Both the position numbers and the translations under genes were made by a program. Positions 7,101-21,120 of a stretch of 32,000 nucleotides of DNA are shown piece by piece (within the stretch, counting starts at the first letter, position 1; each line of letters begins with the position of its first letter). Source of the DNA: Aciduliprofundum boonei T469 (GTDB lineage: Archaea > Thermoplasmatota > Thermoplasmata > Thermoplasmatales > Aciduliprofundaceae); contig NC_013926.1 of the NCBI RefSeq assembly GCF_000025665.1, positions 1,170,001-1,202,000 of the forward strand, written 5' to 3'. The notes beneath the pieces are model-generated. The model did not search any database. It had not been told where the DNA came from and saw nothing but the letters and a program-made list of their open reading frames with translations.

Positions 7101-8972
7101 GAAGTAATGGCAAGCACTCCAGGAGATCAGAATCCAAGGAATGATGTTAGCTTTTATTATCCAAATGGATACTGGTCAATTGCAACTTTCAAGGTATTGA
7201 GTTACGATGTAGAGCCAGTTATGGCATATCAGCGTGATGATAATATAAATATTGAGTTATACAACTTTGGTCCCTTAGCTTCTAATGGTACTAAAGTTGA
7301 TCTGTGGGAAATGGAAAATGTTACAGATATAAATATACAATCTCCGCATCCATATCCAAACAACTATGATAATGTTTGGACAATAACTGTTCCAAATGCA
7401 ACAAAGATAGCTTTGCACTTTAATTATCTATACGTTGAGCCTGGATGGGATTATGTGTATATTTACAACTCCACAGGCAAGCTACAAGTATCTTACACCG
7501 GCTTCTATAACGATCTGTGGACTCCGTTTATAAACGGCTCTACTGTGTATGTAGAGCTAGTATCTGATGAATCTGTTAATTATACTGGATTCTATATAGA
7601 CGCATATTCTACAGGGATCTCTCATATTGGTAGTACCCAGGTGGGTGCTATAGGTTCCGGAGATTATATAACTGCTATTATGTCTCTAGGTAATACTACT
7701 GCTGGGGTACACTATTATAAGATATCTACAAATACTCCGGGCGAGAGTGCAACACTGACCACAGGAGGTTCAAGCAATAATATTATTTATCAAACAATTA
7801 ATGTTACAGATACAATAGCTCCCCAGATAGAATCTTTCCATTTGGCGAATACCATTACAAATGATAGAAGTCCAGAGCTTAACTTTACATGGTACGATGA
7901 AATTTATAGTGGATTCTTCAAGGTGAGTGTACAGATAGATGGTATAACAATACCTGCGAGGGTAATTGCTAATGGCAATAGTGGAAATGTAATTGCAAAT
8001 GTTCCATTCCTGCTAGCTGATGGAAAGCATACTGTGCAAATAACTCTTGTAGATAATGGAGGGAATAAAGTTACTGAAAGTTGGACATTTACAGTGGATG
8101 CTACACCGCCAAGTTTGAAGATAACCACATCTACAAATACTCCTATAACATATACATCTACCTTCTGGATAAATGGAACCACAGAACCTGGTGCAACGGT
8201 GACCATAAATGGAGTAAATGTTCCTGTTGATCCAAATGGAAACTTTGCATATAAGACTACCTTGGTCAACGGTGAAAATGTGTTCCGGGTTGTGGCCACT
8301 GACGAGGCAGGCAACTCTGCCACGGAAATAGTTACTGCTTTATATTTGCCTCAGATACCAGAAATATTGAATGCGATTAATGCTATTAACTCGGAGATAA
8401 GTAATTTACAGAGTCAGGTAACTACTATGAAAGATGAAATCTCAGCTCTCCAAGGCAAGATATCTACTATCCAGGGTGACATATCCACAATTAACAGTGA
8501 TATAAATAATATAAAATCCCAGCTTGATACCCTAAATTCTAGAATTAATACACTGCAAAATGATTTAAAAGAGAATGTTACTGCTCTTAACAAAGCAATT
8601 GAGGAGTTAAATACAACATTGGTAAACAAGATTGAACAGAACATAAACAACTTGCAGAGCCAGATTAACGATTTGAAGAACCAAGCAAATGATTTACAGA
8701 GCAATATACAGCAGATTAACACAAATATAAGTGATATACAGAGTAAGAACAATGAGCAAGATAAGGCAATAAGCTCTAGCAATAACATAGGTTATGCAGG
8801 TATAGTTTTGGGAATTATAGCACTGATAATAGCGATAGTGGCGGTTGCAAGAAAGCCTAAGGTACCCATGCAGAAGGAGGAAAAGAAAGAAAGCACTAAA
8901 GAAAATCCTAGTGAAGAAAGTGAAGAAGATATAGATGAAACTGAAGAGGGCTCTGAGGAAGAAAAAGAATAA
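4107..8972 (+). CDS. Large secreted, membrane-anchored surface protein with a peptidase C25 (gingipain-like) core, CARDB/Ig-like and CUB-like domains, a coiled-coil stalk and a C-terminal TM anchor
   Basis: An SD-like GGGTGATG lies 6 nt upstream of the start. The N-terminal signal anchor ends in SVQA/KQ. IIEITHGSGFSFW (His467, nt 5505-5507) and YISGSCLNGAW (Cys502, nt 5610-5612) lie 35 residues apart, resembling the gingipain R His/Cys context (recalled). About 32 N-x-S/T sequons by manual count. Heptad-like Asn/Gln/Ser/Ile-rich segment at residues ~1412-1555, TM helix IGYAGIVLGIIALIIAIVAVA, then an acidic tail. Confidence 0.8.
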   Translation: MKGGRFGKLGSILVVTLMVLTAFAVIISVQPSVQAKQANMQGVHFLYRDVHINVKDLKYVTGPNGGRYIVGKGMRELTNPGDPAVPVKIISFTLPAGAKNIRVNLQNIWMTSYGKLKISPIPAPALKSGRAFPAKFSPPKYNEKVYKSSKYYPDKNYDFTISKTMDKTIVNVYIYPVKYNPVTNEVKVMTHAKVVVSYSPGSLKSGSAPINVENIIITSPQLKAAAQRLADFHNSTGVTSWVVTTTWIAKNYQPAPNPPVNGYANATTDPYGLLGGQALPLEKNMIIGYNYTLAKKIIAFLQNESYGSNVEYITIFGNARAVPPSYYWTDQYMYLLAYYGLSDMYDAWIPTDAFYAQPNYNSTYFSYEPQFFIGRIPVNPLTANKVVNKIIYYATHKTAGIENVTLSGGQVFETPYFLGETGVLEPLNYGWLDGAKVTEYFHTLRNYTYNNFIKMMYNSDMIIEITHGSGFSFWHHNDEVSAWDFSMNSSYGSLPIYISGSCLNGAWDEEMYPSEFASGINGGTSIAEKMLYAPNGIIAYYGADREAYGSTFAYFDNGTLVAPNDFGDLITEDGTVAGYFLATHYYGYATLGMMYYYALSLYNYWLGENLTSVDPWDTGMNDNPWARSYFEYSLIGDPALKVSGNGASYPSYNVPSVIIPNAVYNSNDVPIITRGKEVSVNISTDSPIVKVELLYLEHGYGSGPWGAQPTYYDFILDMKTLHPVATNNGVNNFTYSFVPNREGTYILSVYSADGKNTRFYMSCSSPMPPLSATERTNYNGRAYNENIKSTAPDVQVITLLDYGDVAFGKTTNVTAVVYNSGNATATNITVHFYLENYVLIFQEGNLSHPLVWLGNATISSLAPGEVAYVTIPWKAVNLIPLGMDPTNSSVRWQYVVASADVAGDTNLNNNAMWALFHVHLPLDVWVQKVFIQKDPVVGEPNSITFEITNIGTTTTATSNVTVMDYYGTIKTVSVTLAPGQTKFITVPWTPKVAGEDIIEVMASTPGDQNPRNDVSFYYPNGYWSIATFKVLSYDVEPVMAYQRDDNINIELYNFGPLASNGTKVDLWEMENVTDINIQSPHPYPNNYDNVWTITVPNATKIALHFNYLYVEPGWDYVYIYNSTGKLQVSYTGFYNDLWTPFINGSTVYVELVSDESVNYTGFYIDAYSTGISHIGSTQVGAIGSGDYITAIMSLGNTTAGVHYYKISTNTPGESATLTTGGSSNNIIYQTINVTDTIAPQIESFHLANTITNDRSPELNFTWYDEIYSGFFKVSVQIDGITIPARVIANGNSGNVIANVPFLLADGKHTVQITLVDNGGNKVTESWTFTVDATPPSLKITTSTNTPITYTSTFWINGTTEPGATVTINGVNVPVDPNGNFAYKTTLVNGENVFRVVATDEAGNSATEIVTALYLPQIPEILNAINAINSEISNLQSQVTTMKDEISALQGKISTIQGDISTINSDINNIKSQLDTLNSRINTLQNDLKENVTALNKAIEELNTTLVNKIEQNINNLQSQINDLKNQANDLQSNIQQINTNISDIQSKNNEQDKAISSSNNIGYAGIVLGIIALIIAIVAVARKPKVPMQKEEKKESTKENPSEESEEDIDETEEGSEEEKE

Positions 8973-9543: not shown

Positions 9544-10136
9544 ATAAATATAGAAAGAATGTTGATTCGCTTCTAACATCATTATCCAAACCATTTATGA
9601 AAATGCATCCTAATACCATAACATTAATCTCTCTTTTTATATCATTTCTCGCTGCCATATCTTATTATCTCACCCATATTAGTTCATATTTTCTATTTGC
9701 GTTTCTTGCATTCTTAATCCTCGCATCATTGATGGATGCTATTGATGGTAAAGTTGCCAGATTACGGGGCATATCTTCAAATAGGGGGGATTTTCTTGAT
9801 CATCTAATTGATAGGTATGCGGATATGATAATAATAATTGGGATATCTTTAAGTCCATATTCAACCCCACTAATCGGCCTATTTGCATTGTCGGGCGTGT
9901 TTATGACCAGCTATGTGGGCACACAAGCACAGGCAGTGGGAGTTGGAAGAATATACGGGGGTATCCTTGGCAGAGCAGATAGATTAGTGATATTGATGCT
10001 CCTGCCCATAATACAATTTTTCTGGTGGGGCTACTATTTCTCCATATCCTCTTGGATTTTAATACTATTTGCAGTTCTTGGGCATATAACGGCTATTCAG
10101 AGGATTCTCTCTGCCTGGAAATCCATTCCTTCTTAA
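9534..10136 (+). CDS. CDP-alcohol phosphatidyltransferase family membrane protein (archaeal polar-lipid head-group synthase, e.g. archaetidylinositol-phosphate or archaetidylserine synthase type)
   Basis: DAIDGKVAR-x8-G-x3-D-x3-D is a perfect CDP-alcohol transferase signature, and the protein has multiple TM helices. I chose the ATG at 9534 (in frame with the track start at 9483) because the upstream extension lies inside the Fap7-like gene. Confidence 0.8.
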   Translation: MVLNKYRKNVDSLLTSLSKPFMKMHPNTITLISLFISFLAAISYYLTHISSYFLFAFLAFLILASLMDAIDGKVARLRGISSNRGDFLDHLIDRYADMIIIIGISLSPYSTPLIGLFALSGVFMTSYVGTQAQAVGVGRIYGGILGRADRLVILMLLPIIQFFWWGYYFSISSWILILFAVLGHITAIQRILSAWKSIPS

Positions 10137-11187
10137 TTTTGTAATAAAGAAGAGGATGGCTCATCCAGTCTTTTTTACAGAGGTTATCATTTACTGCATT
10201 CTTCACACAAAGCCCGTATGCTTGAAGAGTGGAGCATTTAGGAACTTCATACTCCTTTTTCGAAATTCCCCCAGTTATGTGCTCAACTTGGTACCTTGTC
10301 ATAGATTCATTAAAATCAGGCGCAGTTGCAAATACTTTCATTATATCATCATTTCTGACCCCTATTTTATGAAGAAATGTTACAAGAAAGAATCTCGCTT
10401 GGTGGGGTAGATTCACTCCATTCTTCAATTTGACAAGTATCGATTTTAAACAGGGAGGAAATGCATCTTCCACCACATCGCCAAAATCCTGAGAGGAGTA
10501 TTTAGAGATGTATGCGTCTTTCAATTCTCTAATTTTCTCAATTTCATCTTTAAAATATTTTTTTAATGCATCTTTTTTATTTGCATTGCTCTCAATATCC
10601 CTTACAAAATTTTTAACAAATGCTTCTCTCAATATTTTTATGAATTCCTCTTTGCTCACAGGGACCCATCCTTCTTTAAGAGGTTGATTTATAAGCTTGA
10701 AAGCTTCTCCACTTATGCCCGATGCATATTTTATAAAATCTAAGAAATGAACCAATATGAAGAGTTCGTATTTTGTGCCTGCAACCCAAGGTTTTGGATT
10801 CTCCTCGTGCAATCTTCTAATTTTCTCGGGAATATCCTTGTACTTTACTCCCAAAGAGGATGCAACAAGATATATATTCTCACTGCTATCCTCAATCAAG
10901 TGTCCTTCAAGCTCGTCTCTTACAACATTCGCAAATCTTCTTGTTATTATTGGATCGCTAAGAGCTATTAGAAAAAGCTTGGAAATATAAAATCCAATAA
11001 TTTTTGTCTCTTCATCGGTTATTGAGCTCCTAAGATTCTCATCAAAGCAGCTTATAACTTTGGCTATCCCGTAATCGCGAGCGTTTTCATAAATTGAGGA
11101 TGTAAGTAGCTCATCCAGTTCTATATTTCTTACAACATCTAGGGCCTGTGGTAGAAATGGGTACTTAACAAGAGTGCGCATATTCAT
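10093..11187 (-). CDS. priL: DNA primase large (regulatory) subunit PriL with Fe-S cluster cysteines
   Basis: KYPFLPQAL lies near the N-terminus. FPPCLKSILVKLKNGVNLPHQARFFLVTFLHKIGV is the conserved PriL block, and the C-terminal CSTLQAYGLC...LCKK supplies three more Cys. The start is set to the ATG at 11187 (alternative 11181) because the track extension to 11235 uses a TTG and runs through the tRNA gene. Confidence 0.85.
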   Translation of the reverse strand: MNMRTLVKYPFLPQALDVVRNIELDELLTSSIYENARDYGIAKVISCFDENLRSSITDEETKIIGFYISKLFLIALSDPIITRRFANVVRDELEGHLIEDSSENIYLVASSLGVKYKDIPEKIRRLHEENPKPWVAGTKYELFILVHFLDFIKYASGISGEAFKLINQPLKEGWVPVSKEEFIKILREAFVKNFVRDIESNANKKDALKKYFKDEIEKIRELKDAYISKYSSQDFGDVVEDAFPPCLKSILVKLKNGVNLPHQARFFLVTFLHKIGVRNDDIMKVFATAPDFNESMTRYQVEHITGGISKKEYEVPKCSTLQAYGLCVKNAVNDNLCKKDWMSHPLLYYKIKKEWISRQRESSE

Positions 11188-11192
11188 ATCAG

Positions 11193-11315
11193 GGCCGGGA
11201 CCGGGATTTGAACCCGGGTCAAGGGATTGCCACAAAGCTCCTTTTAGGGGTAAAGCACCTTTTTTAAAGGGGCTTTTCCACAGTCCCCTAGGATAGCCCC
11301 TACCCTATCCCGGCC
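11193..11315 (-). tRNA. tRNA-His(GUG) with genomically encoded G-1 and a 50-nt intron at the canonical 37/38 position; CCA not encoded
   Basis: Minus-strand read: G(-1) GCCGGGA UA GGGU AGGGGCUA UCCU A GGGGA CUGUGG [intron] A UCCCU UGAC CCGGG UUCAAAU CCCGG UCCCGGC C. The acceptor stem has 7 Watson-Crick pairs and the T-arm is CCGGG/CCCGG with a UUCAAAU loop. Anticodon GUG, and discriminator C73 opposite G-1, the His identity signature. Confidence 0.85.
11228..11277 (-). other. tRNA-His intron flanked by a helix-bulge-helix-bulge-helix splicing motif
   Basis: The outer helix is the anticodon stem GGGGA/UCCCU. The 3' bulge is CAA. The 4-bp central helix pairs CUGU with GUGG (one C-G and three G-U pairs). 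The 5' bulge is GGA. The inner helix pairs AAAGC with GCUUU. Cutting 2 nt into each bulge gives the loop CUGUGGA. Confidence 0.75.
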
Positions 11316-11355: not shown

Positions 11356-11402
11356 AGAATTGCTCCTAAAAATATTTTTACTAAAAGCTCATTTACTTGC
11401 CC

Positions 11403-12830
11403 ATGGTGAAGATCACAGATACAACACTTAGAGATGGACACCAAAGCTTGTTTGCCACCAGAATGCGCACAGAAGATATGATACCAATAGCAGAGGCAAT
11501 GGACGAAATGGGATTTTTCTCTCTAGAGGTTTGGGGTGGTGCCACATTCGATTCTGCCATGCGATTTTTGAACGAGAATTCGTGGGATAGGCCCAGAACT
11601 CTAAAAAAGTACATAAAAAACACTCCCTTGCAAATGCTCTTGCGTGGCCAAAACTTGGTTGGATATAGGCATTATCCCGATGATATTGTTGAAAAATTTG
11701 TGTTCAAAGCAGTGGAAGCTGGAATTGACATCTTTCGTATATTTGACGCTCTAAATGATATAAGAAACATGGAAACGGCAATTAAGGCTGTAAAGAAGGC
11801 AGGGGCGCATGCGCAAGGTTCTGTGGTTTATACGATAAGTCCAATACACACCTTGGAGAGTTTTGTTGAGATGGCAAAAAAATTGGAAGAGTTAGGCGTG
11901 GATTCTATCTGCATAAAAGATATGGCAGGACTTATGAGTCCGACAGTAGCTTCAAAATTGGTTAAAATGATGAAAAAAGAGCTCAGTGTGCCTATAGATT
12001 TACATACTCACAGCACGGCTGGATGGGCACCGATAACTTATATGAAAGCAGTGGAGGCAGGAGTAGATATAATTGATACCGCAATGTCTCCTTTTGGATT
12101 CGGAACTGCGCAGCCTGCAACGGAGAGTATGGTAGCCTCCTTTAAGGATACCCCATATGATACCGGAATGGATTTAAAGAAATTGGAAAAAATTGCAGAG
12201 TATTTCAGAGTAGTTGAGAAAAAGCTGAGAAAGTACACTAGAATGGAAATGCGCATTGCAGATACGAGAGTGCTTATTTATCAAGTTCCGGGTGGTATGT
12301 TATCTAATCTCTACAATCAACTGAAAGAAATGAAGGCAGAGGACAAGATCGAAGAGGTTCTTGCAGAGGTTCCCAAGGTTCGTGCAGAGGTGGGCTATCC
12401 CCCTCTTGTAACTCCATTAAGCCAAATTGTAGGCACTCAGGCAGTTATGAATGTTATCTCTGGTGAGAGGTGGAAAATGGTAACTAAGGAGATGAGAAAT
12501 TACATAAAAGGTCTATATGGAAAACCTCCAGGAGAGATAAAGGAAGAAATAAAGAAGAAGGTTCTGGGTGATGAGAAACCTATAACTGCTAGACCTGCAG
12601 ATTTACTGGAGCCAGGATTTGAAAAAGTTAAAGAGGAGATAGGCGATTTAGCCGATAATGAAGAGGATGTTCTATCTTACGCTCTATTTCCAGATGTGGC
12701 TAGAAAATTCTTCATGCGTAGAAAAGGGTTAGCAGAAGAAACCCCAGAGCCACCCAAGGAAGGAAAGAAGTACAAGATATGGATCAACGGAGAAGAGTAC
12801 TTTGTGAATGTGGAGGAGATGCCCCAATGA
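11403..12830 (+). CDS. Oxaloacetate decarboxylase alpha / pyruvate carboxyltransferase (transcarboxylase 5S-type) subunit without a biotinyl domain
   Basis: KITDTTLRDGHQS at the N-terminus is the HMGL-like carboxyltransferase signature, with IKDMAGL and LHTHSTAG motifs. The protein ends ...KKYKIWINGEEYFVNVEEMPQ with no (A/V)MKM biotinylation motif. I prefer the ATG at 11403 over the track TTG at 11397. Confidence 0.8.
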   Translation: MVKITDTTLRDGHQSLFATRMRTEDMIPIAEAMDEMGFFSLEVWGGATFDSAMRFLNENSWDRPRTLKKYIKNTPLQMLLRGQNLVGYRHYPDDIVEKFVFKAVEAGIDIFRIFDALNDIRNMETAIKAVKKAGAHAQGSVVYTISPIHTLESFVEMAKKLEELGVDSICIKDMAGLMSPTVASKLVKMMKKELSVPIDLHTHSTAGWAPITYMKAVEAGVDIIDTAMSPFGFGTAQPATESMVASFKDTPYDTGMDLKKLEKIAEYFRVVEKKLRKYTRMEMRIADTRVLIYQVPGGMLSNLYNQLKEMKAEDKIEEVLAEVPKVRAEVGYPPLVTPLSQIVGTQAVMNVISGERWKMVTKEMRNYIKGLYGKPPGEIKEEIKKKVLGDEKPITARPADLLEPGFEKVKEEIGDLADNEEDVLSYALFPDVARKFFMRRKGLAEETPEPPKEGKKYKIWINGEEYFVNVEEMPQ

Positions 12831-13519
12831 AACATTATTTTTATTATCCTTTTAGCTATCTAATACTTTTTATTTATCTTATTTTCTTCTTTTTCTTCTT
12901 TATGTTTTTCATTTTTGGTGTGCCTTATGCTTTCGTCAAATTGGGAATACCCTCTAATCTAGCAATGTCCATGTTTTTATTTGCGATCATTGGTAGTTAC
13001 ATAAATATACCAATAAAAAGAATAGAGAGTAAGAGCCCTATGGCCCCTAAGGGGTCTGTTAATTTTTGGGGATTAAAGTATCAGATTCCCCATACACCTC
13101 ATACAACCACCCTCTTGGCAATAAACCTTGGAGGTGCAATTATACCCATATTTATATCTTCGTGGGTTTTTGTATCTCTCTTTATTCATTCTTACTACAT
13201 TTTGATTCTAAAAAGTATCTTAGGTATAGCAATAGTAGCAATAGTGTCCTACATATTTGCAAAGCCGGTTAAAGGAATGGGAATAGCGCTTCCTGCATTC
13301 ATTCCACCTATTGTAGCATCTTTAACTGCATTGTTTATAGCCCCTGAAAATCCTGTGGCTGTTGCATACATATCAGGCACTCTAGGTACGCTGATAGGTG
13401 CAGATTTGATGCATATGAAAGATATTGAGAATTTAGGAGCGCCTGTGGCAAGCATCGGTGGTGCAGGCACATTCGATGGAGTGTTCCTCTCCGGCATAAT
13501 TGCAATACTACTGATATAA
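12827..13519 (+). CDS. Polytopic integral membrane protein of unknown function (possibly DUF1614-like)
   Basis: It has about 6-7 hydrophobic helices and motifs INLGGAIIP and IGGAGTFDGVFLSG. The ATG at 12827 overlaps the upstream TGA (ATGA), implying translational coupling. The family name is recalled only. Confidence 0.5.
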   Translation: MKHYFYYPFSYLILFIYLIFFFFFFMFFIFGVPYAFVKLGIPSNLAMSMFLFAIIGSYINIPIKRIESKSPMAPKGSVNFWGLKYQIPHTPHTTTLLAINLGGAIIPIFISSWVFVSLFIHSYYILILKSILGIAIVAIVSYIFAKPVKGMGIALPAFIPPIVASLTALFIAPENPVAVAYISGTLGTLIGADLMHMKDIENLGAPVASIGGAGTFDGVFLSGIIAILLI

Positions 13520-13524: not shown

Positions 13525-14826
13525 TTAGAGTTTAGAACGAGTTATATTTACCCCATCTACAAGGATATAGGGAAGGTACGAAGGAAGAACCTCATCCCAC
13601 CACTTCACTTTCTCTCTTTCTTTGCTTACTTCTACTATATTTGAGAATATGTGTGGCATATTTTCCGTGACTCTAATACCTTTCCAAGATTCTTTTATCT
13701 CTCCGTTCTCAATGTAGAATATTCCGTCCCTCGGTATAGTTGAGAAATCGCCGTTTCTGTAATCTTGGAACCTTGTATACCACAGATTGATTATAAATAA
13801 GCCCTTATCAATTTCTGATAGTAAATCTTGATAGCTTTTGTTTCCTTCTTTTACAACTGGCTGCCATGCATTTGGGTTTAGTATTCCAGCGTTTCCAGTG
13901 GTATCAGTATTGAATTTATGCGCAGTTGAGTAACTATGAAGGTAATTTTTCACTACACCTTTCTCGACTATGGGTGTTTTTTGAGTAGCTGTGGCTTCTT
14001 GATCAAATATGCGATAGCCCGTGGAGAATAAAGTTGGATCATCATAAATTGTCAATTTTTCTGAATAGACCTTCTCTCCGATCTTACCTGCAAAGAAACT
14101 CATACCTGCATCAACTGCAAATGCAGAGGCCATGTGCATGCTGTAAGAGATTAAAGAACCAAAGGCGAGGGGATGAAATAGAATTTTGTATTTTCCCTCT
14201 TCTCCATCTTTTGGTTCTCCTCCAAGAGAGGCAATGACTCCAGCTCTCTCTCCAATGCTCTTTGCATCTTCAAGTTCCTTCGCATCTGCAGTCGTGATTG
14301 CCTCTTGACCTGCATTTCTGTACTCGTTGAAAGCCCTTATAACTATATCCACATTTGCAACTTCATCTTTGGCACTGTTATAATTTGTTAATATCTCTCT
14401 TTTCACATAATCCCTATATACCACACCAGCAGCTCTGATGGCTCCTTTTTCTATAGCCCCATCAATCACTTCCTTGGCCAAATTTTCAAGGTCTAAATCC
14501 AAAATTTCGTAATCTATTTTCCTATTCCTATAATTTTGCTTTTTCGGGTTCAGACCATAAAAATCTTTGTTTTCAGGCAAAGTTTGCAGCATTCTTGCAT
14601 ATTTTTCAATAAGCTCCTCCGCCTTGTTCAAATTTTTTATGGTTGTCATAAACACTTTCTTCCCTTTAGAAAGAAAAACCTCTAAACTCTTTTCAACCCA
14701 TAGTTTAGAAATATCTATGTCATTATTTGAAAATCTAACTTGCCTTTTTTCCCTCTCTATTAAAATCAAAGAGGCTTCATCAATGCCCAAATTTTGAGCC
14801 TTATTCATAATTTTTTCAAGATCCAT
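13525..14826 (-). CDS. pmbA: PmbA/TldE-type metalloprotease partner subunit
   Basis: It is a 433-aa TldD/PmbA-family sequence lacking the HExxxH motif. It sits directly downstream of tldD, and its SD GAGGTGA overlaps the tldD stop codon. Confidence 0.8.
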   Translation of the reverse strand: MDLEKIMNKAQNLGIDEASLILIEREKRQVRFSNNDIDISKLWVEKSLEVFLSKGKKVFMTTIKNLNKAEELIEKYARMLQTLPENKDFYGLNPKKQNYRNRKIDYEILDLDLENLAKEVIDGAIEKGAIRAAGVVYRDYVKREILTNYNSAKDEVANVDIVIRAFNEYRNAGQEAITTADAKELEDAKSIGERAGVIASLGGEPKDGEEGKYKILFHPLAFGSLISYSMHMASAFAVDAGMSFFAGKIGEKVYSEKLTIYDDPTLFSTGYRIFDQEATATQKTPIVEKGVVKNYLHSYSTAHKFNTDTTGNAGILNPNAWQPVVKEGNKSYQDLLSEIDKGLFIINLWYTRFQDYRNGDFSTIPRDGIFYIENGEIKESWKGIRVTENMPHIFSNIVEVSKEREKVKWWDEVLPSYLPYILVDGVNITRSKL

Positions 14827-14830
14827 AATA

Positions 14831-16195
14831 TCACCTCAGTTTAATTTCCCTAAGACGGAGATGAGGGCCACCCATCCAAACATCAACGCCTTGCATGGGA
14901 TCTCCCTTTCCGCATGTACCTGCGAAGAACTCTAAATCCTTTGCTATTGCATCTATTCTGCTATAGAATCCAGGAGTGGTTATTTCTAAAACAGGTCTTC
15001 TTACAGGAGCCACAATCTCTCCGTTCTTTATTAAATATGCCTCTCTACCCACATATTTTTGATTGTAGCGAATATCATCAATGTTCCACTCAGTAAAGCT
15101 CTTCATATAAATTCCCTCTTTGACATCCTCAAACAACTCTTCCTTGGAATAATCTCCTGGCTCAAAGAATGTTGTGCTCATCCTAACTATGGGCTCTCTA
15201 TTCCACCACGATGAGCGAGCTGCTCCATTGCTCTTTGTACCAAGCTTTCCAGCGCTTTCTCTATTGTGTAGAAACTCATTTATTTTTCCATCCTTGTAAA
15301 GGTATCTTCTTCTTGCTGGAATGCCCTCTTCATCGTACTTGTAGTATCCAAAACTGTGTGGCACAGTGGGGTCATCTACAACATTCACAATCTCGCTTCC
15401 TATTCTCTCTCCAACCTTTGAAGGGTTTATAAAGCTCTCTCCAGCTTGGGCTGCCTCTCTTCCAAGTATCCTATCTGCCTCGCTTGGATGTCCACATGAT
15501 TCATGAGCAATTATGCCTGCAACCTCTGGACCTACAATCAAATCATATGTTCCCTCTGGGGATTTTTTTGCTTTGACAATTTCCCTAAGGGCTTTTTCCT
15601 CTTCAGGCAATAGAGATAGTATATCCCATCTATCAAATATTTCATAACCACCGCTCATTCCATATTGCCTATAACTCTGCTCAAAATTTCCATTTTCCAT
15701 AACACCGAGCATATAGAAATATTCAACCCGGGGGATTTTTGCCCTTATCTTTGAACCTTCTGAATTTATGTACAATTTTTCTATTTTCTTATCTTTAAGC
15801 ATTTGAAGCTTCATTTGAGCACCAAGGCGCTTATCAACATCGAGTAGATAATCTATTTTTTCATCGACATCCATATTTTCAATCTTCTTCTTTTCTTCCA
15901 CGCTCCAAGAATCTTCATAGCGAGCTTCTGAGGAAAAATCTATTCTGTTTTTCCTCTTTTTTGAAAGTTTTACCGCCCTTTCTGCAATTTCCTTGAGATT
16001 AGAAATATCATTTGTAGCTGAAAAACCTATTCCTTCATTGACAACTCTGACAGCAAAGCCATCTTCTTCCGTAGAAGATACAGCATTAATAACTCCGTTC
16101 TTCACAGTTATAATATTCATATTTATCTTCATGTACCTTATCTCAGCAAACCTTGCATCTATACCTTCTAATACCCTCTCGAGAATGTCTTCCAT
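14831..16195 (-). CDS. tldD: TldD-type zinc metalloprotease
   Basis: HESCGHPSEADR (HExxxH-containing TldD signature) is present, with family-typical length. The start is set to the ATG at 16195, with GAGG 9-12 nt upstream. The track start at 16231 is a TTG overlapping the upstream gene. Confidence 0.85.
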   Translation of the reverse strand: MEDILERVLEGIDARFAEIRYMKINMNIITVKNGVINAVSSTEEDGFAVRVVNEGIGFSATNDISNLKEIAERAVKLSKKRKNRIDFSSEARYEDSWSVEEKKKIENMDVDEKIDYLLDVDKRLGAQMKLQMLKDKKIEKLYINSEGSKIRAKIPRVEYFYMLGVMENGNFEQSYRQYGMSGGYEIFDRWDILSLLPEEEKALREIVKAKKSPEGTYDLIVGPEVAGIIAHESCGHPSEADRILGREAAQAGESFINPSKVGERIGSEIVNVVDDPTVPHSFGYYKYDEEGIPARRRYLYKDGKINEFLHNRESAGKLGTKSNGAARSSWWNREPIVRMSTTFFEPGDYSKEELFEDVKEGIYMKSFTEWNIDDIRYNQKYVGREAYLIKNGEIVAPVRRPVLEITTPGFYSRIDAIAKDLEFFAGTCGKGDPMQGVDVWMGGPHLRLREIKLR

Positions 16196-16205
16196 ATCAA
16201 CCGCC

Positions 16206-17348
16206 TCATAGGGTCTCCCGTCTGAATTCAAGAAGCTTGTCTCTTTCTTTCTTCACATTTCTCTCTAGTATCTCCAAAACATCTTTAAATGCGCTGTAAA
16301 TATTCCAATCATAGCTTCTGGCAAAGAAGAGCCTGCGGTCTGTAGTTAATCTGGCTCTCACGCTGTATTTTATCTCTTTTCCACTGATATGGTGCTCCTC
16401 AACATGGAATGTTAGGAGCTGGGGCTTGAATTCCTTAAAGCGATTGATTTTGTGCAGAAACTCTTCTACCATGTTGTAAATTATTTGATACGGCTCCATA
16501 TCCTCTATGTCCAATCCAGTTATTTGGACGAACACACCTTCTTGTTTTCCCTCCCTCAATATCGCTTCTATTACATCTCTTTGAGATATCACTCCAATTG
16601 GCACACTTTTTTTATCTATAACAGCGCATATGGATGAGTGAAATTCAATCATTTTCTCTACAGCATCCTTTAAAATAGAATCTTCGGAAACATAAACTGG
16701 AGGAACCATTATTTCTTTTACCAAAATTTGAACTTTTTTCTTCTCTCCAGATACCTCTCCCAAACTTGCCCTCTCTTTCTCTCTCCATACTGCTTTAGCA
16801 GCATCTCTCATATGCACTATACCCACAAGTTTTCTATTCTCATCCACCACAGGCACGCTCATCTCGCCAAGTTTTTTCATTATATCAACTGCATATTGTA
16901 TGGGCGAATCTTCCTCAACAAGCTCCGGCTCACTTGTCATGACATCCTCCACTGGAATATTAGCAACATCCTTCATTTTGGGAACAAGCTTTATTATATC
17001 CGTTCTTGATATTATGCCCACGAGCTTATTCTTTTCCACAATTGGCAGAGAGCGATAGCCTGCATCAATCATCAATTTAACAGCATCCTCTATGCTTGCA
17101 TCTGGATCTAAAACTGGAGGTTTTACCATAATATTTTCCACACGGGAGTATAGAGATAAACTCTTTCTCCTTATCAATGTTCTGTAATTCACATATCCAA
17201 CAAGCTCGCCCCTATCATTCACCACAGGCAGTTCGTGAAATCCATGCTCCTGCATCTTGCTTATTGCCTTAGATATGGTATCTCCAAGTTTAGCTACAAC
17301 AACATCCTTTGTCATAACATCCTTAACTTTTATCTCACCAGGTTCCAT
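16206..17348 (-). CDS. Four-CBS-domain protein with a C-terminal HPF/RaiA-like (S30AE-type) domain
   Basis: Four CBS repeats lie in residues ~8-265 (for example VMTKDVVV, IMVKPPVL, VMTSEPEL, IMVPPVYV, each followed by ...VV(D/N)...G(I/Y)(I/V)). Residues 271-372 resemble HPF by eye. The SD AGGTGA lies 4 nt upstream of the ATG. Confidence 0.7.
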   Translation of the reverse strand: MEPGEIKVKDVMTKDVVVAKLGDTISKAISKMQEHGFHELPVVNDRGELVGYVNYRTLIRRKSLSLYSRVENIMVKPPVLDPDASIEDAVKLMIDAGYRSLPIVEKNKLVGIISRTDIIKLVPKMKDVANIPVEDVMTSEPELVEEDSPIQYAVDIMKKLGEMSVPVVDENRKLVGIVHMRDAAKAVWREKERASLGEVSGEKKKVQILVKEIMVPPVYVSEDSILKDAVEKMIEFHSSICAVIDKKSVPIGVISQRDVIEAILREGKQEGVFVQITGLDIEDMEPYQIIYNMVEEFLHKINRFKEFKPQLLTFHVEEHHISGKEIKYSVRARLTTDRRLFFARSYDWNIYSAFKDVLEILERNVKKERDKLLEFRRETL

Positions 17349-17444
17349 ATTATCACCTCACTTGGCAGGTGCTTAACAATTTTCCTGCCTATTTTGCATA
17401 ATGGTTTATGAGAAAATAAACCTTTTGGCTCAAAGCAAAAAGCT

Positions 17445-17481
17445 TATATATGTCGGACATATATACTTAATATGTCTGACA
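17445..17481. promoter_or_regulatory. Palindromic elements in the CBS/ftsZ divergent intergenic region: a 21-nt perfect palindrome plus a second copy of its 12-nt core
   Basis: TATATATGTCGGACATATATA (17445-17465) is a perfect palindrome around G17455. ATATGTCTGACA (17470-17481) repeats ATATGTCGGACA (17448-17459) at 11 of 12 positions, with centres 22 nt apart. Both lie 20-60 nt upstream of the ftsZ start and overlap TATA-like sequence. Confidence 0.5.
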
Positions 17482-17502
17482 AAAATATGAAAGGTGATGA
17501 TG

Positions 17503-18558
17503 ATGGGTTTAGAATATTTGATTAAAGATGCCCTTTCTGCAGGGTATGATGAAAAGAGTGAGGCAGATGTAAATATAAAGGTGGTAGGCATAGGTGGCGG
17601 TGGATGCAATAGTATAACAAGATTGAGTACTCAAAACTTAAAGGCAGAATTGATAGCAGTAAATACGGATAAATCACATTTTTCAATAGTAAACGCCTCA
17701 AAGAAGGTTCTAATAGGAAAGAAGATAACGAACGGTCGTGGCGCAGGAGGAAATATGGAAATAGGGGAGCAGGCAGCCCAGATGGCATATAACGATATAT
17801 ACAAGATACTTGATGGAGGAGATATAGTATTTCTCCTTGCTGGTCTCGGCGGAGGAACTGGTGGAGGTGCAGGACCTGTTATAAGCGAGATAGCAAGGGA
17901 TGCTGGAGCACTCGTTGTGTCAATGGTAACCATGCCATTTAAGGCGGAGGGAAAGAGGAGATGGGAGCAGGCTGAAATGTCTCTTGAGAGATTTAGGGAG
18001 CATTCTCATACAGTTATAGTTCTCGATAACAACAGGCTTGTGAGCTTAGCCAAGAATTTACCCATAAAGAAAGCATTTGCAATTATGGATTACCTTATTG
18101 GAGATGTCATAACAAACTTGGCAGATGCTATAACCATACCCTCTTTGATGAATATAGATTTCTCAGATTTAGAGGCGTTGATGAGAAATGGAGGCACATC
18201 TACAATTCTCTATGGAGAGGGAAATTATTACACCCCCCAGGATGCCGTTATGGATACTTTAAACAACCCCCTTATGGATATAGATTACAGGGGTGCCAAC
18301 GGTGCGCTTATCCATATCACAGGTGGCTCTGAGATGTCATTACAGACAGTTTATAGAATCGCTGAGGGAATAACCTCCGGGATAAGAGATGATGCAGAGG
18401 TAAAAATAGGAGCAAGGGTTGATGATAGATACACAAAAAAATTAAAAATAACTACCATACTAACGGGGGTGCATACCCCATACCTACAGAAGCGAGAAGC
18501 GAGATACATAACGGAAGAGATAGGAGGCATAAATGACCTGATTTCAGTGGTCTACTGA
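17503..18558 (+). CDS. ftsZ: Cell division GTPase FtsZ (paralog not assignable by eye)
   Basis: It carries VVGIGGGGCN, the tubulin signature GLGGGTGGGAG, and the T7-loop motif NIDFSD. Three consecutive ATGs (17497, 17500, 17503) follow the SD AGGTGA at 17492-17497. I chose the last for spacing, so the start is uncertain by up to 9 nt. Confidence 0.85.
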   Translation: MGLEYLIKDALSAGYDEKSEADVNIKVVGIGGGGCNSITRLSTQNLKAELIAVNTDKSHFSIVNASKKVLIGKKITNGRGAGGNMEIGEQAAQMAYNDIYKILDGGDIVFLLAGLGGGTGGGAGPVISEIARDAGALVVSMVTMPFKAEGKRRWEQAEMSLERFREHSHTVIVLDNNRLVSLAKNLPIKKAFAIMDYLIGDVITNLADAITIPSLMNIDFSDLEALMRNGGTSTILYGEGNYYTPQDAVMDTLNNPLMDIDYRGANGALIHITGGSEMSLQTVYRIAEGITSGIRDDAEVKIGARVDDRYTKKLKITTILTGVHTPYLQKREARYITEEIGGINDLISVVY

Positions 18559-18594
18559 TTTTCCAAAATTATTTATACAATAAGCCTTTTCGTG

Positions 18595-18629
18595 CTTTGC
18601 CTATGATTGATTAAATGAAGGAGGTAAAG
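18595..18629 (+). promoter_or_regulatory. K-turn (kink-turn) RNA motif in the L7Ae mRNA leader that incorporates the Shine-Dalgarno sequence
   Basis: CUUUGCC (18595-18601) pairs with GGUAAAG (18623-18629) as a 7-bp C-helix. A 3-nt bulge UAU (18602-18604) is followed by G-A (18605-18606) opposite G-A (18621-18622). The SD GGAGGU is at 18620-18625 and the ATG at 18633. Confidence 0.6.
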
Positions 18630-18632
18630 AAA

Positions 18633-18998
18633 ATGGCTGCAATATATGTAAGGTTTGAGACACCAAAAGAACTGCAGGAAAAAATGCTTAGTGCGGTGGA
18701 GATTTCCAAAGAAACTGGAAAAGTGAGGAAGGGAACGAACGAAGTCACAAAAACGATTGAGAGAGGAGATGCAAAATTTGTCATAATTGCTGAGGATGTA
18801 AATCCTCCAGAGATTGTGGCTCATCTGCCTCTTCTATGCGAAGAGAAGGGAATCCCATATGGCTATGTTGCTACTAAGGAAGAGCTCGGCAAAAGAGTTG
18901 GAATAAAGAGTGCTGCCTCGGTAAGCATCCTTGACTTTGGAAAAGCTAATGATTCTTTTAAGGAAATAATCGAGCAGATTAAGGCAATAAAGAAGTAA
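18633..18998 (+). CDS. rpl7ae: Ribosomal protein L7Ae (K-turn binding; 50S, box C/D and H/ACA RNP component)
   Basis: YVRFETPKEL at the N-terminus, plus KGTNEVTKTIERG and VIIAEDVNPPEIV, are L7Ae hallmarks. The ATG at 18633 is preferred over the track start at 18615 because GGAGGT lies 7 nt upstream. Confidence 0.9.
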   Translation: MAAIYVRFETPKELQEKMLSAVEISKETGKVRKGTNEVTKTIERGDAKFVIIAEDVNPPEIVAHLPLLCEEKGIPYGYVATKEELGKRVGIKSAASVSILDFGKANDSFKEIIEQIKAIKK

Positions 18999-19009
18999 AG
19001 GTGATTTAG

Positions 19010-19219
19010 ATGGCAGATGAAGCTACGCCCGCCGAAGTCGTTGAAATTATGGGAAGAACAGGGATGACCGGTGAGGTTACTCAGGTAAAGGTTCGCGTTC
19101 TTGAAGGTAGAGATAAGGGGAGAATTCTAACCCGCAATGTTATGGGTCCTGTGCGAGTTGGGGATATATTGATGCTTAGAGAAACTGCAAGAGAGGCAAG
19201 AAAGCTGGAGGCAAGGTGA
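19010..19219 (+). CDS. rps28e: Ribosomal protein S28e
   Basis: [48 protein letters not shown] is a typical S28e sequence. The SD AGGTGA lies 5 nt upstream of the ATG. Confidence 0.9.
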
Positions 19220-19224
19220 TTTAA

Positions 19225-19470
19225 ATGCCCACAAAGCATGTTTGTGCCTTCTGCGGAAAAGAAATAGAGCCGGGCACTGGCAAGATGTATGTTACTAGGA
19301 CTGGCACAGTTTACTACTTCTGCAGTAGCAAATGCTACAAGAATATGATCGAATTGCACAGAATACCTCGCAAGGTTAGATGGACCGCTGCGTATAGAAA
19401 GGAAAAAGAAGTTAGATTACATTTAATACAGAGGCGAGAAAATGAAGCAAAGGACATTGGTACTTCTTAA
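19225..19470 (+). CDS. rpl24e: Ribosomal protein L24e
   Basis: It has the [17 protein letters not shown]...YYFCSSKC zinc-ribbon motif. The upstream context AAGGTGATTTA-N-ATG is identical to that of rps28e. The 3' end overlaps ndk by 29 nt. Confidence 0.9.
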
Positions 19471-19888
19471 GCCTGATGCGGTTAATAGAAGGCTTATGGG
19501 GGAGATTATCTCCCGCTTTGAAAAGAAAGGATTGAAGATAGTGGCAATGAAAATGCTCTGGATGAGCAGGGAAAGAGCTGAGAAGCACTACGAGGTACAT
19601 AAAGACAAGCCATTCTATGAGAGCTTGATAGATTACATAACCTCTGGCCCAATAGTGGCAATGGTTTTAGAAGGAGATAGAGCCATAGAAGTTGTCCGCA
19701 AGATGATGGGTAAGACAAATGGGATAGAAGCAGAACCAGGAACGATAAGAGGAGATTTTGCAATGAGTATACAGAACAACCTTGTGCATGGCTCGGATTC
19801 TGAGGAATCAGCAAAGAGAGAGATACCAATATTCTTTGATGATAGTGAAATTTTAGAGTACAGGCTGGTAGACGAAGTCTGGATATAA
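19442..19888 (+). CDS. ndk: Nucleoside diphosphate kinase
   Basis: [11 protein letters not shown] is present, along with the catalytic-His motif NLVHGSDS. Length is 148 aa. Confidence 0.9.
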
Positions 19889-21120
19889 TGTACACTGAGA
19901 AAGATATAGGCATTTTTTCTTTTTTATCCTCCACTTCTGGCATAGGTGGGAAGTTAAGGAAAAATGTTGAAGATTTTTATGTTGAAGAGATTCCATTAGA
20001 GCTGGAAAAGAAGGACAATGGCAAACATCTTTGTTTAAAAGTTAAACTTTTTAACTGGGAAACTAACAGATTCGTGAAAATATTGAGCAAAAATTTGGGA
20101 ATTAGCAGACACCGCATAAAATTTGCAGGAAATAAAGATAAAAGAGGAGTAACCATACAATATTTTTGCATCCTTAATTATCCAGGAAAAATAAACTTAA
20201 ATCTTAAGGATGTTGAAATTCTTGATGAATTTAGAAGCAGTAGGGAGATAAACATAGGAGATTTGTATGGAAACAAATTCGAGATAGTGGTTAGAGATGC
20301 AAAATGTGATGATAGAGTTGATAAGATAGAAGAGGAGTTAAATGGTTTTTTCCCAAATTTCTTTGGTGTGCAGAGATTTGGAGCAAGCAGACCTATAACC
20401 CATATTGTTGGAAAATTTATAATTAAAGGTAGATATGATGAGGCTGTAAGATACTACATAGGCTTTCCCTCTTCCTTTGATGAGGATGATGGAAGAAAAA
20501 TCTTCTTTGAGAATATGGATGCACGGGAAGCCATAAAAAATATAAGTAAAAATGCAAGTTATGAGAGAGCAATGCTGAATTACCTGATAAAAAATGAGAG
20601 AGATTATGTGGGTGCTCTAAAACAGCTACCCAAGAATCTCTTGCTATTATTCGTGCATGGATATCAGAGTTATATATTCAACAAAATTCTTAGTAAAAGA
20701 TTAGAAATAGGAATTGATGTGCAAGTTGGAGATATAATTATGAAGGTAGATAAATTTGGATTGCCTATGCAAGAATTTGTTAAAGTTACAGATTTCAATA
20801 TTGAAAAAATTAAGAATTTAATTAATGCAAAAAAAGCATATGTTTCCACCATACTATTTGGATATAATTCATATTTTAGTGAGGAGTCTCAGGGAGATAT
20901 CGAAAGAGAGGTAATTGATGAGGAAGGGATAAATAAAAAAATGTTTCACATAAAAGAGATTCCAGAATTGAGTTCAAAGGGTAGAAGAAGAAACATAATT
21001 TCTCCTATTATGGATTATAATCGAGACAATTGTAAGTTTAGGTTTATCCTTCATCGCGGCTCCTATGCCACATCCCTTATGAGAGAGTTTATGAAGCAGA
21101 ATTCTTTGGAATTTTATTGA
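19888..21120 (+). CDS. truD: tRNA pseudouridine synthase TruD/Pus7 family (archaeal tRNA psi13 synthase type)
   Basis: It has the GNKDKRGVTIQY (catalytic Asp) and FGVQRFG motifs. The start overlaps the ndk stop (TAATG). Confidence 0.85.
   Translation: MYTEKDIGIFSFLSSTSGIGGKLRKNVEDFYVEEIPLELEKKDNGKHLCLKVKLFNWETNRFVKILSKNLGISRHRIKFAGNKDKRGVTIQYFCILNYPGKINLNLKDVEILDEFRSSREINIGDLYGNKFEIVVRDAKCDDRVDKIEEELNGFFPNFFGVQRFGASRPITHIVGKFIIKGRYDEAVRYYIGFPSSFDEDDGRKIFFENMDAREAIKNISKNASYERAMLNYLIKNERDYVGALKQLPKNLLLLFVHGYQSYIFNKILSKRLEIGIDVQVGDIIMKVDKFGLPMQEFVKVTDFNIEKIKNLINAKKAYVSTILFGYNSYFSEESQGDIEREVIDEEGINKKMFHIKEIPELSSKGRRRNIISPIMDYNRDNCKFRFILHRGSYATSLMREFMKQNSLEFY

What the first reader, a model, noticed from the sequence alone, without database searches (positions are those of the whole stretch)
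16206..17348. Four CBS modules fused to an HPF/RaiA-like (ribosome-hibernation type) domain in an archaeon
Residues ~8-265 are four tandem CBS motifs. Residues 271-372 (nt 16233-16538) read VFVQITGLDIEDMEPYQIIYNMVEEFLHKINRF / QLLTFHVEEH / KYSVRARLTT / RLFFARSYD / WNIYSAFKDVLEILERNVKKERDKL. This is a beta-alpha-beta-beta-beta-alpha layout. By eye it aligns with E. coli HPF/YfiA: an ITG start, a long amphipathic helix ending in F, three short strands, then (A)xxxxDxYxAxDxxxxxLxRxxxKxKDK. The HPF/RaiA (S30AE) family is generally treated as bacterial and plastid, and CBS pairs are adenosyl-nucleotide sensors. The fusion therefore suggests an energy-charge-gated ribosome-silencing factor in an archaeon. 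The gene sits 10 nt upstream of tldD-pmbA on the same strand and diverges from ftsZ. I cannot tell from the sequence alone whether this architecture has already been described.
Basis: partly seen in the sequence, partly recalled or inferred. Interest (0 to 1): 0.75.

Follow-up and report, generated by a model that had tools for sequence, protein, structure and literature searches.

The report
Archaeal ribosome hibernation factor HibA/AHA

Summary
ORF 16206-17348 (-) encodes a 380-aa protein with four Pfam CBS domains (residues 8-61, 70-122, 133-187, 210-264). Its C-terminal domain passes the Pfam gathering threshold for PF02482 (HPF/RaiA). [quoted passage not shown]

The window is Aciduliprofundum boonei T469 chromosome.

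The interpretation also holds, but it is no longer new. The architecture was described as HibA (Pyrococcus abyssi / Thermococcus barophilus; bioRxiv Oct 2025, Nat Commun Apr 2026) and independently as AHA (Haloferax volcanii; bioRxiv Feb 2026). Both came with cryo-EM structures on 70S ribosomes, knock-out phenotypes and AMP binding.

The A. boonei protein aligns end to end with P. abyssi HibA (PDB 9SR9; profile-profile probability 100%, E 1.5e-42). It keeps the conserved GExxGEK loop that in HibA/AHA enters the peptidyl-transferase centre. The A. boonei genome was in the published survey set.

Ribosome binding, and whether nucleotides gate it, are untested for this protein. Gating is also unresolved for the family.

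One apparently undescribed side observation: hibA forms a tight, probably co-transcribed unit with the tldD-pmbA protease genes. This arrangement is conserved only in part of Thermoplasmatota.

The parts
16206..17348 (-). hibA/AHA-family gene: 380 aa plus TGA stop at 16206-16208. 100% identical to an Aciduliprofundum boonei protein annotated 'CBS domain-containing protein'.
17166..17327 (-). CBS1 (residues 8-61)
   Evidence: 59.1 bits, cutoff 24
16983..17141 (-). CBS2 (residues 70-122), with the canonical G-h-h-S-x-x-D motif 111-GIISRTD-117
16788..16952 (-). CBS3 (residues 133-187)
16722..16787 (-). Loop between CBS3 and CBS4 (residues 188-209, WREKERASLGEVSGEKKKVQIL). It is the counterpart of the HibA 'PTC loop' (P. 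abyssi residues 190-207) and AHA 'loop 3'. AlphaFold confidence is low (pLDDT about 43 for residues 190-204) but the sequence is strongly conserved: W188 37/47, G197 37/47, G201 42/47, K/R203 42/47.
   Evidence: literature
16557..16721 (-). CBS4 (residues 210-264). Motif 252-GVISQRD-258, with G252 and D258 invariant in 47 homologues. It aligns with P. abyssi 253-GILTVKD-259 in the CBS3/CBS4 region, where HibA and AHA bind AMP/ATP.
   Evidence: literature
16212..16538 (-). HPF/RaiA-like domain (residues 271-379): beta 273-277, alpha 285-302, beta 309-320, beta 326-336, beta 340-347, long alpha 350-379
17349..17493 (.). Divergent intergenic region between hibA and ftsZ. It holds the GAGGTGAT ribosome-binding site of hibA (17353-17360). 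An A/T-rich AAAAGGTTTATTTT element about 60-75 nt upstream of the ATG could be a BRE/TATA promoter (inference only).
   Evidence: sequence read directly
14831..16195 (-). tldD (454 aa from the ATG at 16195), 10 nt after the hibA stop. A GAGG motif overlaps the hibA stop codon. Probably co-transcribed.
13525..14826 (-). pmbA/tldE (433 aa), 4 nt after the tldD stop. GAGGTGA overlaps the tldD stop. A T7 run follows immediately after the pmbA stop codon (likely archaeal terminator).

Best explanation
The gene encodes the Aciduliprofundum boonei member of the HibA/AHA family of archaeal ribosome hibernation factors.

By homology with the solved P. abyssi and H. volcanii complexes, the mechanism would be as follows. 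The C-terminal HPF/RaiA-like domain sits in the mRNA/tRNA channel of the 30S subunit at the decoding centre. The N-terminal CBS tetrad docks on the 50S subunit over the A/P (and, in HibA, also E/L1-stalk) tRNA sites. The conserved loop after CBS3 reaches into the peptidyl-transferase centre. [quoted passage not shown] The CBS3/CBS4 pocket binds adenine nucleotides, with AMP preferred in HibA.

Shown here: the domain architecture, the fold, full-length homology to HibA, and conservation of the loop and of the CBS4 ribose-binding-type motif. Inferred: ribosome binding, translation inhibition and nucleotide binding by this particular protein, and any nucleotide-dependent switching.
For: 1. Four CBS domains plus PF02482 above the gathering threshold. 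18 of 22 family members hit PF02482 independently.
2. The C-terminal domain model (pLDDT 92) has the HPF fold. The 34 best PDB matches are all HPF/RaiA/YfiA/pY.
3. The best PDB sequence match is 9sr9_H, a full-length alignment of residues 6-369 to 4-372, E 5.7e-24. 9SR9-9SRF and 9T7H are the HibA-70S structures.
4. BLASTP gives 25% identity over 372 collinear columns, E 2e-25. Profile-profile comparison of 47 Thermoplasmatota homologues against 10 Thermococcales HibA gives probability 100%, E 1.5e-42, 368 columns covering both domains.
5. The loop 188-209 is poorly predicted but sequence-conserved (GExxGEK, as in P. abyssi YGELAGEK).
6. A profile of the C-terminal domain finds 1039 cluster representatives at E <= 1e-3. 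107 of the top 150 are >= 340 aa with an N-terminal CBS tetrad, and about 10 are stand-alone proteins of 105-126 aa. This is the same picture as published.
7. Experimental function of homologues: cryo-EM, in vitro translation inhibition, delayed regrowth of the hibA deletion strain with about 60% fewer 70S ribosomes, 4.4-fold fewer colonies in the AHA deletion strain with loss of ribosomal proteins, and AMP binding.
Against: Identity to the characterised proteins is only about 25%. Nothing has been measured for A. boonei.

The TIGR00741 equivalog cutoff is not reached.

The HPF domain here has no net positive charge (net 0, pI 7.1). This gives no electrostatic support for rRNA binding.

The linker geometry and the three 50S docking positions seen in P. 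abyssi may not carry over.

Nucleotide gating of ribosome binding was not seen for HibA.
Confidence: 0.88

Rival explanations
1. The protein is primarily a nucleotide-sensing regulator of the co-transcribed TldD/PmbA metalloprotease. Alternatively, it is a dual-purpose stress module in which hibernation and proteolysis are coupled, for example with the protease removing the factor or recycling peptides on exit from or entry into dormancy.
For: hibA-tldD-pmbA are packed with 10-nt and 4-nt gaps. Shine-Dalgarno motifs overlap the upstream stop codons, and the first T-run comes after pmbA. The same order, with adjacent or overlapping stop and start codons, recurs in relatives down to 38-47% identity. 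It is found in 15 of 22 species-level loci whose HibA is >= 40% identical.
Against: The linkage is lineage-restricted. It occurs in 0 of 52 loci in the <= 38% identity Thermoplasmata clade. It is absent in 7 close DHVE2 relatives that have enough flanking sequence, and absent in P. abyssi and T. kodakarensis, where function was shown. Synteny by descent explains it. No physical or genetic link between TldD/E and ribosome hibernation was found in the literature held.
Confidence: 0.06
2. The C-terminal domain is a generic small alpha/beta RNA-binding or other fold (for example dsRBD-like) that only resembles HPF. The protein would then be an ordinary CBS-regulated protein unrelated to ribosomes.
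For: The Pfam score is only 2-5 bits above threshold, and the TIGR00741 cutoff is not met. dsRBD structures appear among weaker Foldseek hits (ranks 38-49).
Against: All 34 top fold matches are HPF-family proteins, while the dsRBD hits have TM 0.40-0.47 and E > 1e-3. 18 of 22 homologues hit PF02482. The C-terminal domain aligns with that of HibA, which is seen in the 30S decoding site.
Confidence: 0.03
3. It is a CBS-tetrad transcription regulator of the HhpR type (CM-3 family), or another non-ribosomal CBS-tetrad sensor.
For: NCBIfam HhpR gives a partial match (79.3 bits, residues 6-185). CBS tetrads serve many functions.
Against: The HhpR cutoff is 520 bits, so the match is far from met. HhpR-type proteins lack the HPF domain. 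The CBS tetrad here is collinear with that of HibA, including the PTC loop.
Confidence: 0.02

Closest known systems
HibA (Pyrococcus abyssi PAB0961 / T. kodakarensis TK1186 / T. barophilus F0LKU5; Madru et al., bioRxiv Oct 2025, Nat Commun 2026, PMC13324472; PDB 9SR9-9SRF, 9T7H)
   Same: [quoted passage not shown] Similar length (380 vs 392 aa). Collinear homology over both domains. Conserved GExxGEK loop after CBS3. The CBS4 G-h-h-S/T-x-x-D motif is aligned.
   Different: About 25% identity. The A. boonei and Thermoplasmatota C-terminal domain is recognised by Pfam PF02482, whereas the Thermococcales proteins carry no precomputed PF02482 hit. Different genomic context: operon-like with tldD-pmbA here, a stand-alone gene in P. 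abyssi and T. kodakarensis. No experimental data for A. boonei.
AHA (AMPKgamma-HPF from Archaea; Haloferax volcanii HVO_2384; Souza et al., bioRxiv Feb 2026, PMC12934967)
   Same: Same two-module architecture. The HPF domain sits in the 30S A/P sites and mRNA channel. The CBS tetrad sits on the 50S with 'loop 3' of the third CBS in the PTC. Two AMP are bound at CBS3/CBS4. The family was reported in 2,723 archaeal species of 17 phyla.
   Different: The host is a halophile, not a thermoacidophile.
Bacterial/plastid HPF, RaiA (YfiA, pY), long HPF (PF02482 / TIGR00741)
   Same: Same fold (TM 0.53-0.80 to Vibrio, E. coli, Thermus, Listeria, Mycobacterium and chloroplast proteins). Same Pfam family above threshold. 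Same 30S site in the archaeal homologues, according to the papers.
   Different: The bacterial proteins are stand-alone (about 95-115 aa) or carry a C-terminal dimerisation domain. Here the domain is C-terminal to a CBS tetrad. The core is about 10 residues longer, with a longer beta2-beta3 hairpin and a longer last helix. The TIGR00741 equivalog cutoff is not met. No 100S-type dimerisation domain is present.
Dri (Thermoproteota; PDB 9E6Q/9E7F) and SriA-D / ARC-A/P (Methanosarcinales; PDB 9ZNF/9ZNG/9ZNI)
   Same: These are CBS-tetrad ribosome hibernation factors of archaea. Their tetrads are the best or near-best structural matches of the N-terminal module (SriA E 8.4e-22; Dri E 1.4e-17).
   Different: None has an HPF domain. 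Dri has two tetrads (655 aa). Sri/ARC are stand-alone tetrads that act in pairs. The published phyletic patterns show they largely exclude HibA/AHA.
AMPK gamma subunit (eukaryotes) and MJ1225
   Same: CBS tetrad with adenine-nucleotide sites. Structural match E about 1e-17 to 1e-18, TM 0.53/0.65.
   Different: This protein is not part of a kinase heterotrimer, and AMPK gamma has no ribosome-binding domain.

Membership tests
HibA/AHA archaeal hibernation factors | N-terminal module of four tandem CBS domains (two Bateman pairs) | tested here: met
   Pfam CBS x4 at residues 8-61, 70-122, 133-187 and 210-264. The model matches CBS tetrads of SriA, Dri, AMPK gamma and MJ1225.
HibA/AHA archaeal hibernation factors | [quoted passage not shown] | tested here: met
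   PF02482 at 26.0/29.1 bits against a cutoff of 23.7. 18/22 homologues hit it. Model pLDDT 92 with that topology. Top 34 PDB fold hits are all HPF family.
HibA/AHA archaeal hibernation factors | Full-length collinear homology to an experimentally characterised member | tested here: met
   phmmer to 9sr9_H gives E 5.7e-24, residues 6-369 vs 4-372. BLASTP gives 25% identity, E 2e-25. hhalign gives probability 100%, E 1.5e-42, 368 columns.
HibA/AHA archaeal hibernation factors | Long loop in/after CBS3 that enters the peptidyl-transferase centre (PTC loop / loop 3) | tested here: met
   A 22-residue loop (188-209) is present, with low pLDDT. It is aligned to P. abyssi 190-207 with a shared GE-x-x-GEK and is conserved in 37-42 of 47 homologues. 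Its insertion into the PTC is not testable here.
HibA/AHA archaeal hibernation factors | Two archaeal-specific insertions in the HPF domain (beta1-alpha1 and beta2-beta3) | tested here: inconclusive
   The beta2-turn-beta3 hairpin spans 28 residues (309-336) and the beta1-alpha1 loop 7 residues. The core is about 10 residues longer than E. coli HPF.
HibA/AHA archaeal hibernation factors | Adenine-nucleotide binding at the CBS3/CBS4 interface | not testable with these tools
   Only sequence hints are available. 252-GVISQRD-258 has G252 and D258 invariant and aligns to the P. abyssi CBS4 motif.
HibA/AHA archaeal hibernation factors | Binds 70S ribosomes, inhibits translation, preserves ribosomes in stationary phase | not testable with these tools
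   Shown only for P. abyssi / T. barophilus HibA and H. volcanii AHA.
HibA/AHA archaeal hibernation factors | Encoded in an archaeal genome | tested here: met
   100% identical to an Aciduliprofundum boonei protein on a 1.49-Mb contig. Relatives are in Thermoplasmatota and a few DPANN MAGs. The window carries archaeal primase, eS28, eL24, L7Ae and GatD/E.
Bacterial HPF/RaiA (PF02482; TIGR00741 yfiA equivalog) | Score above the curated family cutoff | tested here: met
   The Pfam cutoff is met. The stricter NCBIfam equivalog cutoff (40.9) is not met, at 28.9 bits. The protein is therefore a member of the superfamily/domain family, not of the bacterial equivalog.
Bacterial HPF/RaiA (PF02482; TIGR00741 yfiA equivalog) | Stand-alone short protein, or long HPF with a C-terminal dimerisation domain | tested here: not met
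   The domain is at residues 271-379 of a 380-aa protein, behind a CBS tetrad. Nothing follows it.
Dri / SriA-D (ARC) CBS-only hibernation factors | One or two CBS tetrads without an HPF domain | tested here: not met
   An HPF domain is present. Sequence matches to 9e6q_3, 9znf and 9zni chains cover CBS regions only.
HhpR-type CBS-tetrad transcription regulator (NF053603) | NCBIfam score above cutoff 520 | tested here: not met
   79.3 bits, partial match to residues 6-185.

The most novel reading that the evidence does not exclude
In Aciduliprofundales and neighbouring thermophilic Thermoplasmatota, the hibernation factor is translated from one transcript with the TldD/PmbA (TldE) metalloprotease. 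This could reflect a functional coupling not described for any hibernation system. For example, the protease might clear the factor, or ribosome-derived peptides, during entry into or exit from dormancy, with the CBS tetrad sensing AMP for both.
Probability: 0.1. Interest if true: 0.5.

Novelty: already known. Interest (0 to 1): 0.2.

Why it matters
The architecture matters because it shows that the HPF/RaiA hibernation module is not confined to bacteria and plastids, and because it links ribosome silencing to an AMPK-gamma-like nucleotide sensor. That point was made experimentally in 2025-2026 by the HibA and AHA studies.

What this window adds is modest:
- It is a clear Thermoplasmatota member, from a cultivated thermoacidophile, whose HPF domain is close enough to the bacterial family to pass Pfam's threshold.
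- It sits in a conserved operon-like arrangement with tldD-pmbA that the published work does not mention.

The finding does show that the first-stage reader can recover a real and recently discovered protein family from raw sequence.

Tried and rejected
1. The search for related loci with the 47-sequence alignment failed because no stretch was conserved enough. It worked with a 10-sequence alignment.
2. The search for homologous proteins with the C-terminal domain profile returned only 8 fragments. The exhaustive representative search was needed for breadth.
3. Foldseek with the full-length model was dominated by CBS tetrads. It could not return HibA itself because the fold library stops at 2026-04-08. 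The C-terminal domain therefore had to be modelled and searched alone.
4. The sigma-70 promoter and intrinsic-terminator scan is not meaningful for an archaeon and gave counts near the shuffle expectation. Operon structure was instead read from gaps, Shine-Dalgarno motifs and T-runs.
6. PDB chain 9l96_a (406 aa, 'CBS domain-containing protein', second-best sequence match with both domains aligned) could not be tied to any paper.
7. I tested whether the tldD-pmbA linkage extends to the characterised orthologues. It does not in P. abyssi or T. kodakarensis, and no literature links TldD to hibernation.
8. An HhpR-like transcription factor and a dsRBD-like fold were considered and rejected.

Full report
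**What is there.** A GAGGTGAT ribosome-binding motif lies just upstream of the ATG. The protein is 100% identical to a 'CBS domain-containing protein' of Aciduliprofundum boonei on a 1.49-Mb contig. The rest of the window is ordinary archaeal chromosome: GatD/GatE, a large C25 peptidase, both primase subunits, L7Ae-S28e-L24e-NDK-TruD, an ECF transporter and oligopeptide ABC ATPases.

**Domain content.**
- Pfam finds four CBS domains (E 3.3e-56). Scanned separately they map to residues 8-61, 70-122, 133-187 and 210-264.
- The C-terminal part matches PF02482 (Ribosomal_S30AE, the HPF/RaiA family) at 26.0 bits in the whole protein and 29.1 bits alone, against a gathering cutoff of 23.7.
- The NCBIfam yfiA equivalog model also matches (E 1.3e-6) but stays below its strict cutoff (28.9 vs 40.9 bits).
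- The Pfam match is not an accident of one sequence. 18 of 22 divergent homologues of this domain (27-85% identical to it) hit PF02482 on their own, best E 1.3e-8.

**Structure.**
- AlphaFold2 with a 47-sequence alignment gives mean pLDDT 85.2. It shows a CBS tetrad followed by beta(273-277)-alpha(285-302)-beta(309-320)-beta(326-336)-beta(340-347)-alpha(350-379).
- Foldseek of the whole model returns CBS tetrads: SriA, SSO3205, AMPK gamma, MJ1225 and Dri. That library ends on 2026-04-08 and so lacks the HibA entries.
- The C-terminal domain modelled alone has pLDDT 92. Its 34 best PDB matches are all HPF/RaiA/YfiA/pY proteins from bacteria and chloroplasts (TM 0.53-0.80, best E 1.6e-7). Weak dsRBD matches appear only after them.

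**The family is already described.**
- A text search found four 2025-2026 reports on CBS-containing archaeal hibernation factors.
- Madru et al. (PMC13324472) found HibA on stressed P. abyssi 70S ribosomes by cryo-EM. [quoted passage not shown] It was present in 47% of archaeal genomes and is usually annotated as 'CBS domain-containing protein'.
- In HibA the C-terminal domain sits in the 30S mRNA/tRNA channel. The CBS module takes three positions on the 50S: at the PTC, at uL5 and at the L1 stalk. A loop (residues 190-207) wraps the universally conserved PTC adenine.
- HibA inhibits translation in vitro, and this needs the C-terminal domain. The T. barophilus hibA deletion strain regrows late and has about 60% fewer 70S ribosomes.
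- The CBS module binds AMP, ADP and ATP with Kd of 12, 65 and 113 uM. Neither AMP nor ATP changed the ribosome complexes appreciably.
- Souza et al. (PMC12934967) independently found AHA (HVO_2384) on H. volcanii ribosomes. It has the same architecture, 'loop 3' in the PTC, two AMP at CBS3/CBS4, and stationary-phase survival defects. They report 3,160 homologues in 17 archaeal phyla.
- The A. boonei genome (GCA000025665) is in the genome list of the Madru et al. survey.

**Membership of the window protein.**
- Its best match among PDB sequences is 9sr9_H (392 aa), aligned from residue 6 to 369, E 5.7e-24. 9SR9-9SRF and 9T7H are the HibA-ribosome entries.
- The second-best match, 9l96_a (406 aa), also aligns over both modules. 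I could not tie it to a paper.
- BLASTP to P. abyssi HibA gives 25% identity over 372 collinear columns, E 2e-25.
- A profile of 47 Thermoplasmatota homologues against a profile of 10 Thermococcales HibA gives probability 100%, E 1.5e-42, 368 aligned columns across both domains.
- The loop after CBS3 (188-WREKERASLGEVSGEKKKVQIL-209) is the only segment with pLDDT below 50, yet it is strongly conserved: W188, G197, G201 and K/R203 occur in 37-42 of 47 sequences. It aligns to the P. abyssi PTC loop with a shared GE-x-x-GEK. This is the pattern expected of a loop that folds only on its rRNA target.
- CBS4 keeps a G-h-h-S-x-x-D motif with G252 and D258 invariant. It is aligned to the corresponding P. 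abyssi motif in the region where AMP/ATP bind. That this Asp contacts the ribose is my inference from general knowledge of CBS domains.

**Breadth of the family, checked independently.** A profile of the C-terminal domain searched against 1.84 billion cluster representatives finds 1039 proteins at E <= 1e-3. Of the top 150:
- 107 are >= 340 aa with an N-terminal CBS tetrad;
- 23 are truncated versions that still carry CBS domains;
- 6 are 136-339 aa with no CBS match;
- about 10 of the 14 short CBS-free ones (<= 135 aa) are genuine stand-alone HPF-like proteins of 105-126 aa.

This mirrors the published 'HibA plus HPF/RaiA-like' picture.

**Mechanism, with shown and inferred parts.**
- Shown here: architecture, fold, family membership, and conserved loop and motif.
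- Inferred by homology: the HPF domain blocks the 30S A/P sites and mRNA channel; the CBS tetrad covers the tRNA sites on the 50S with the loop in the PTC; the single chain staples 70S ribosomes in an inactive, protected state; and adenine nucleotides bind at CBS3/CBS4.
- Whether nucleotide binding gates association is unresolved even for the characterised members. For the unrelated CBS-only ARC system, ATP-triggered release is reported.

**Context.**
- hibA is followed on the same strand by tldD and pmbA, with gaps of 10 and 4 nt. tldD most likely starts at the ATG at 16195. The TTG at 16231 listed by the ORF tool would overlap hibA, and relatives align from the ATG.
- GAGG/GAGGTGA motifs overlap the upstream stop codons. 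There is no T-run between the genes, and a T7 run follows directly after the pmbA stop. Together this suggests one transcription unit.
- The same order recurs in relatives at 38-47% identity with adjacent or overlapping stop and start codons.
- Among 80 species-level loci, it is present in 15 of the 22 whose HibA is >= 40% identical and that have enough flank. It is present in none of the 52 more distant loci, though 8 of those have a TldD-like gene 3.6-5.3 kb downstream.
- It is absent in P. abyssi and T. kodakarensis.
- Neither paper mentions TldD or PmbA. No paper in the library links TldD to hibernation.
- I read this as lineage-restricted synteny with probable co-expression. A functional coupling is possible but weakly supported.

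**Verdict.** The architecture is no longer novel. This is an uncharacterised Thermoplasmatota member of the published HibA/AHA family, so interest is low, with the tldD-pmbA linkage as a minor lead.

Noticed in passing
window 13525-17348 (-); loci L001, L005, L007, L008, L010-L012, L023-L031, L080: hibA-tldD-pmbA form a tight, probably co-transcribed unit. Gaps are 10 and 4 nt, Shine-Dalgarno motifs overlap the stop codons, and the first T-run comes after pmbA. The arrangement is conserved in 15/22 species-level loci with >= 40% identical HibA. It is absent in more distant Thermoplasmata and in Thermococcales, and is not mentioned in the HibA/AHA papers.
   Followed up: yes
(protein tables): Most Aciduliprofundales/Thermoplasmatota HibA proteins carry a precomputed PF02482 hit, while none of the 120 listed Thermococcales HibA do. 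The Thermoplasmatota HPF domain therefore looks closer to the bacterial family. This may bear on the HGT-versus-LUCA disagreement between the two papers.
   Followed up: partly
window 4107-8972 (+): A 1621-aa ORF with a Peptidase_C25 (gingipain-type) propeptide and catalytic domain, followed by CARDB, CUB, Big_13 and Glucodextran_B domains. It is probably a large secreted or surface protease of this peptide-fermenting archaeon.
   Followed up: no
window 10093-11235 (-) and 25225-26439 (+): The DNA primase large and small subunit genes both lie in the window, but 14 kb apart and on opposite strands.
   Followed up: no
window 17494-21120 (+): ftsZ is followed by the conserved L7Ae-S28e-L24e-NDK cluster and truD. 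eS28 is one of the ribosomal proteins contacted by HibA in P. abyssi, according to PMC13324472. The proximity here is most likely coincidental.
   Followed up: no
window 14831-16231 (-): The mechanical ORF call for tldD starts at a TTG (16231) that overlaps hibA by 26 nt. The ATG at 16195, with a GAGG motif 7-10 nt upstream, is the more likely start, and relatives align from it.
   Followed up: yes
window 29106-29540 (-): A 144-aa ORF between a methyltransferase gene and oligopeptide ABC ATPase genes has no Pfam match at E <= 1e-5.
   Followed up: no
window 11397-13519 (+): An oxaloacetate-decarboxylase-alpha-like carboxylase gene (HMGL-like + PYC_OADA) overlaps by about 50 nt the listed start of a DUF1614 membrane protein ORF. 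The true start of the latter is probably further downstream.
   Followed up: no
PDB 9l96_a: A 406-aa 'CBS domain-containing protein' chain in four PDB entries (9L96, 9L98, 9L9C, 9L9V) aligns to both the CBS and the HPF parts of the query. It is apparently another HibA/AHA-type structure, for which no paper was found in the library.
   Followed up: partly
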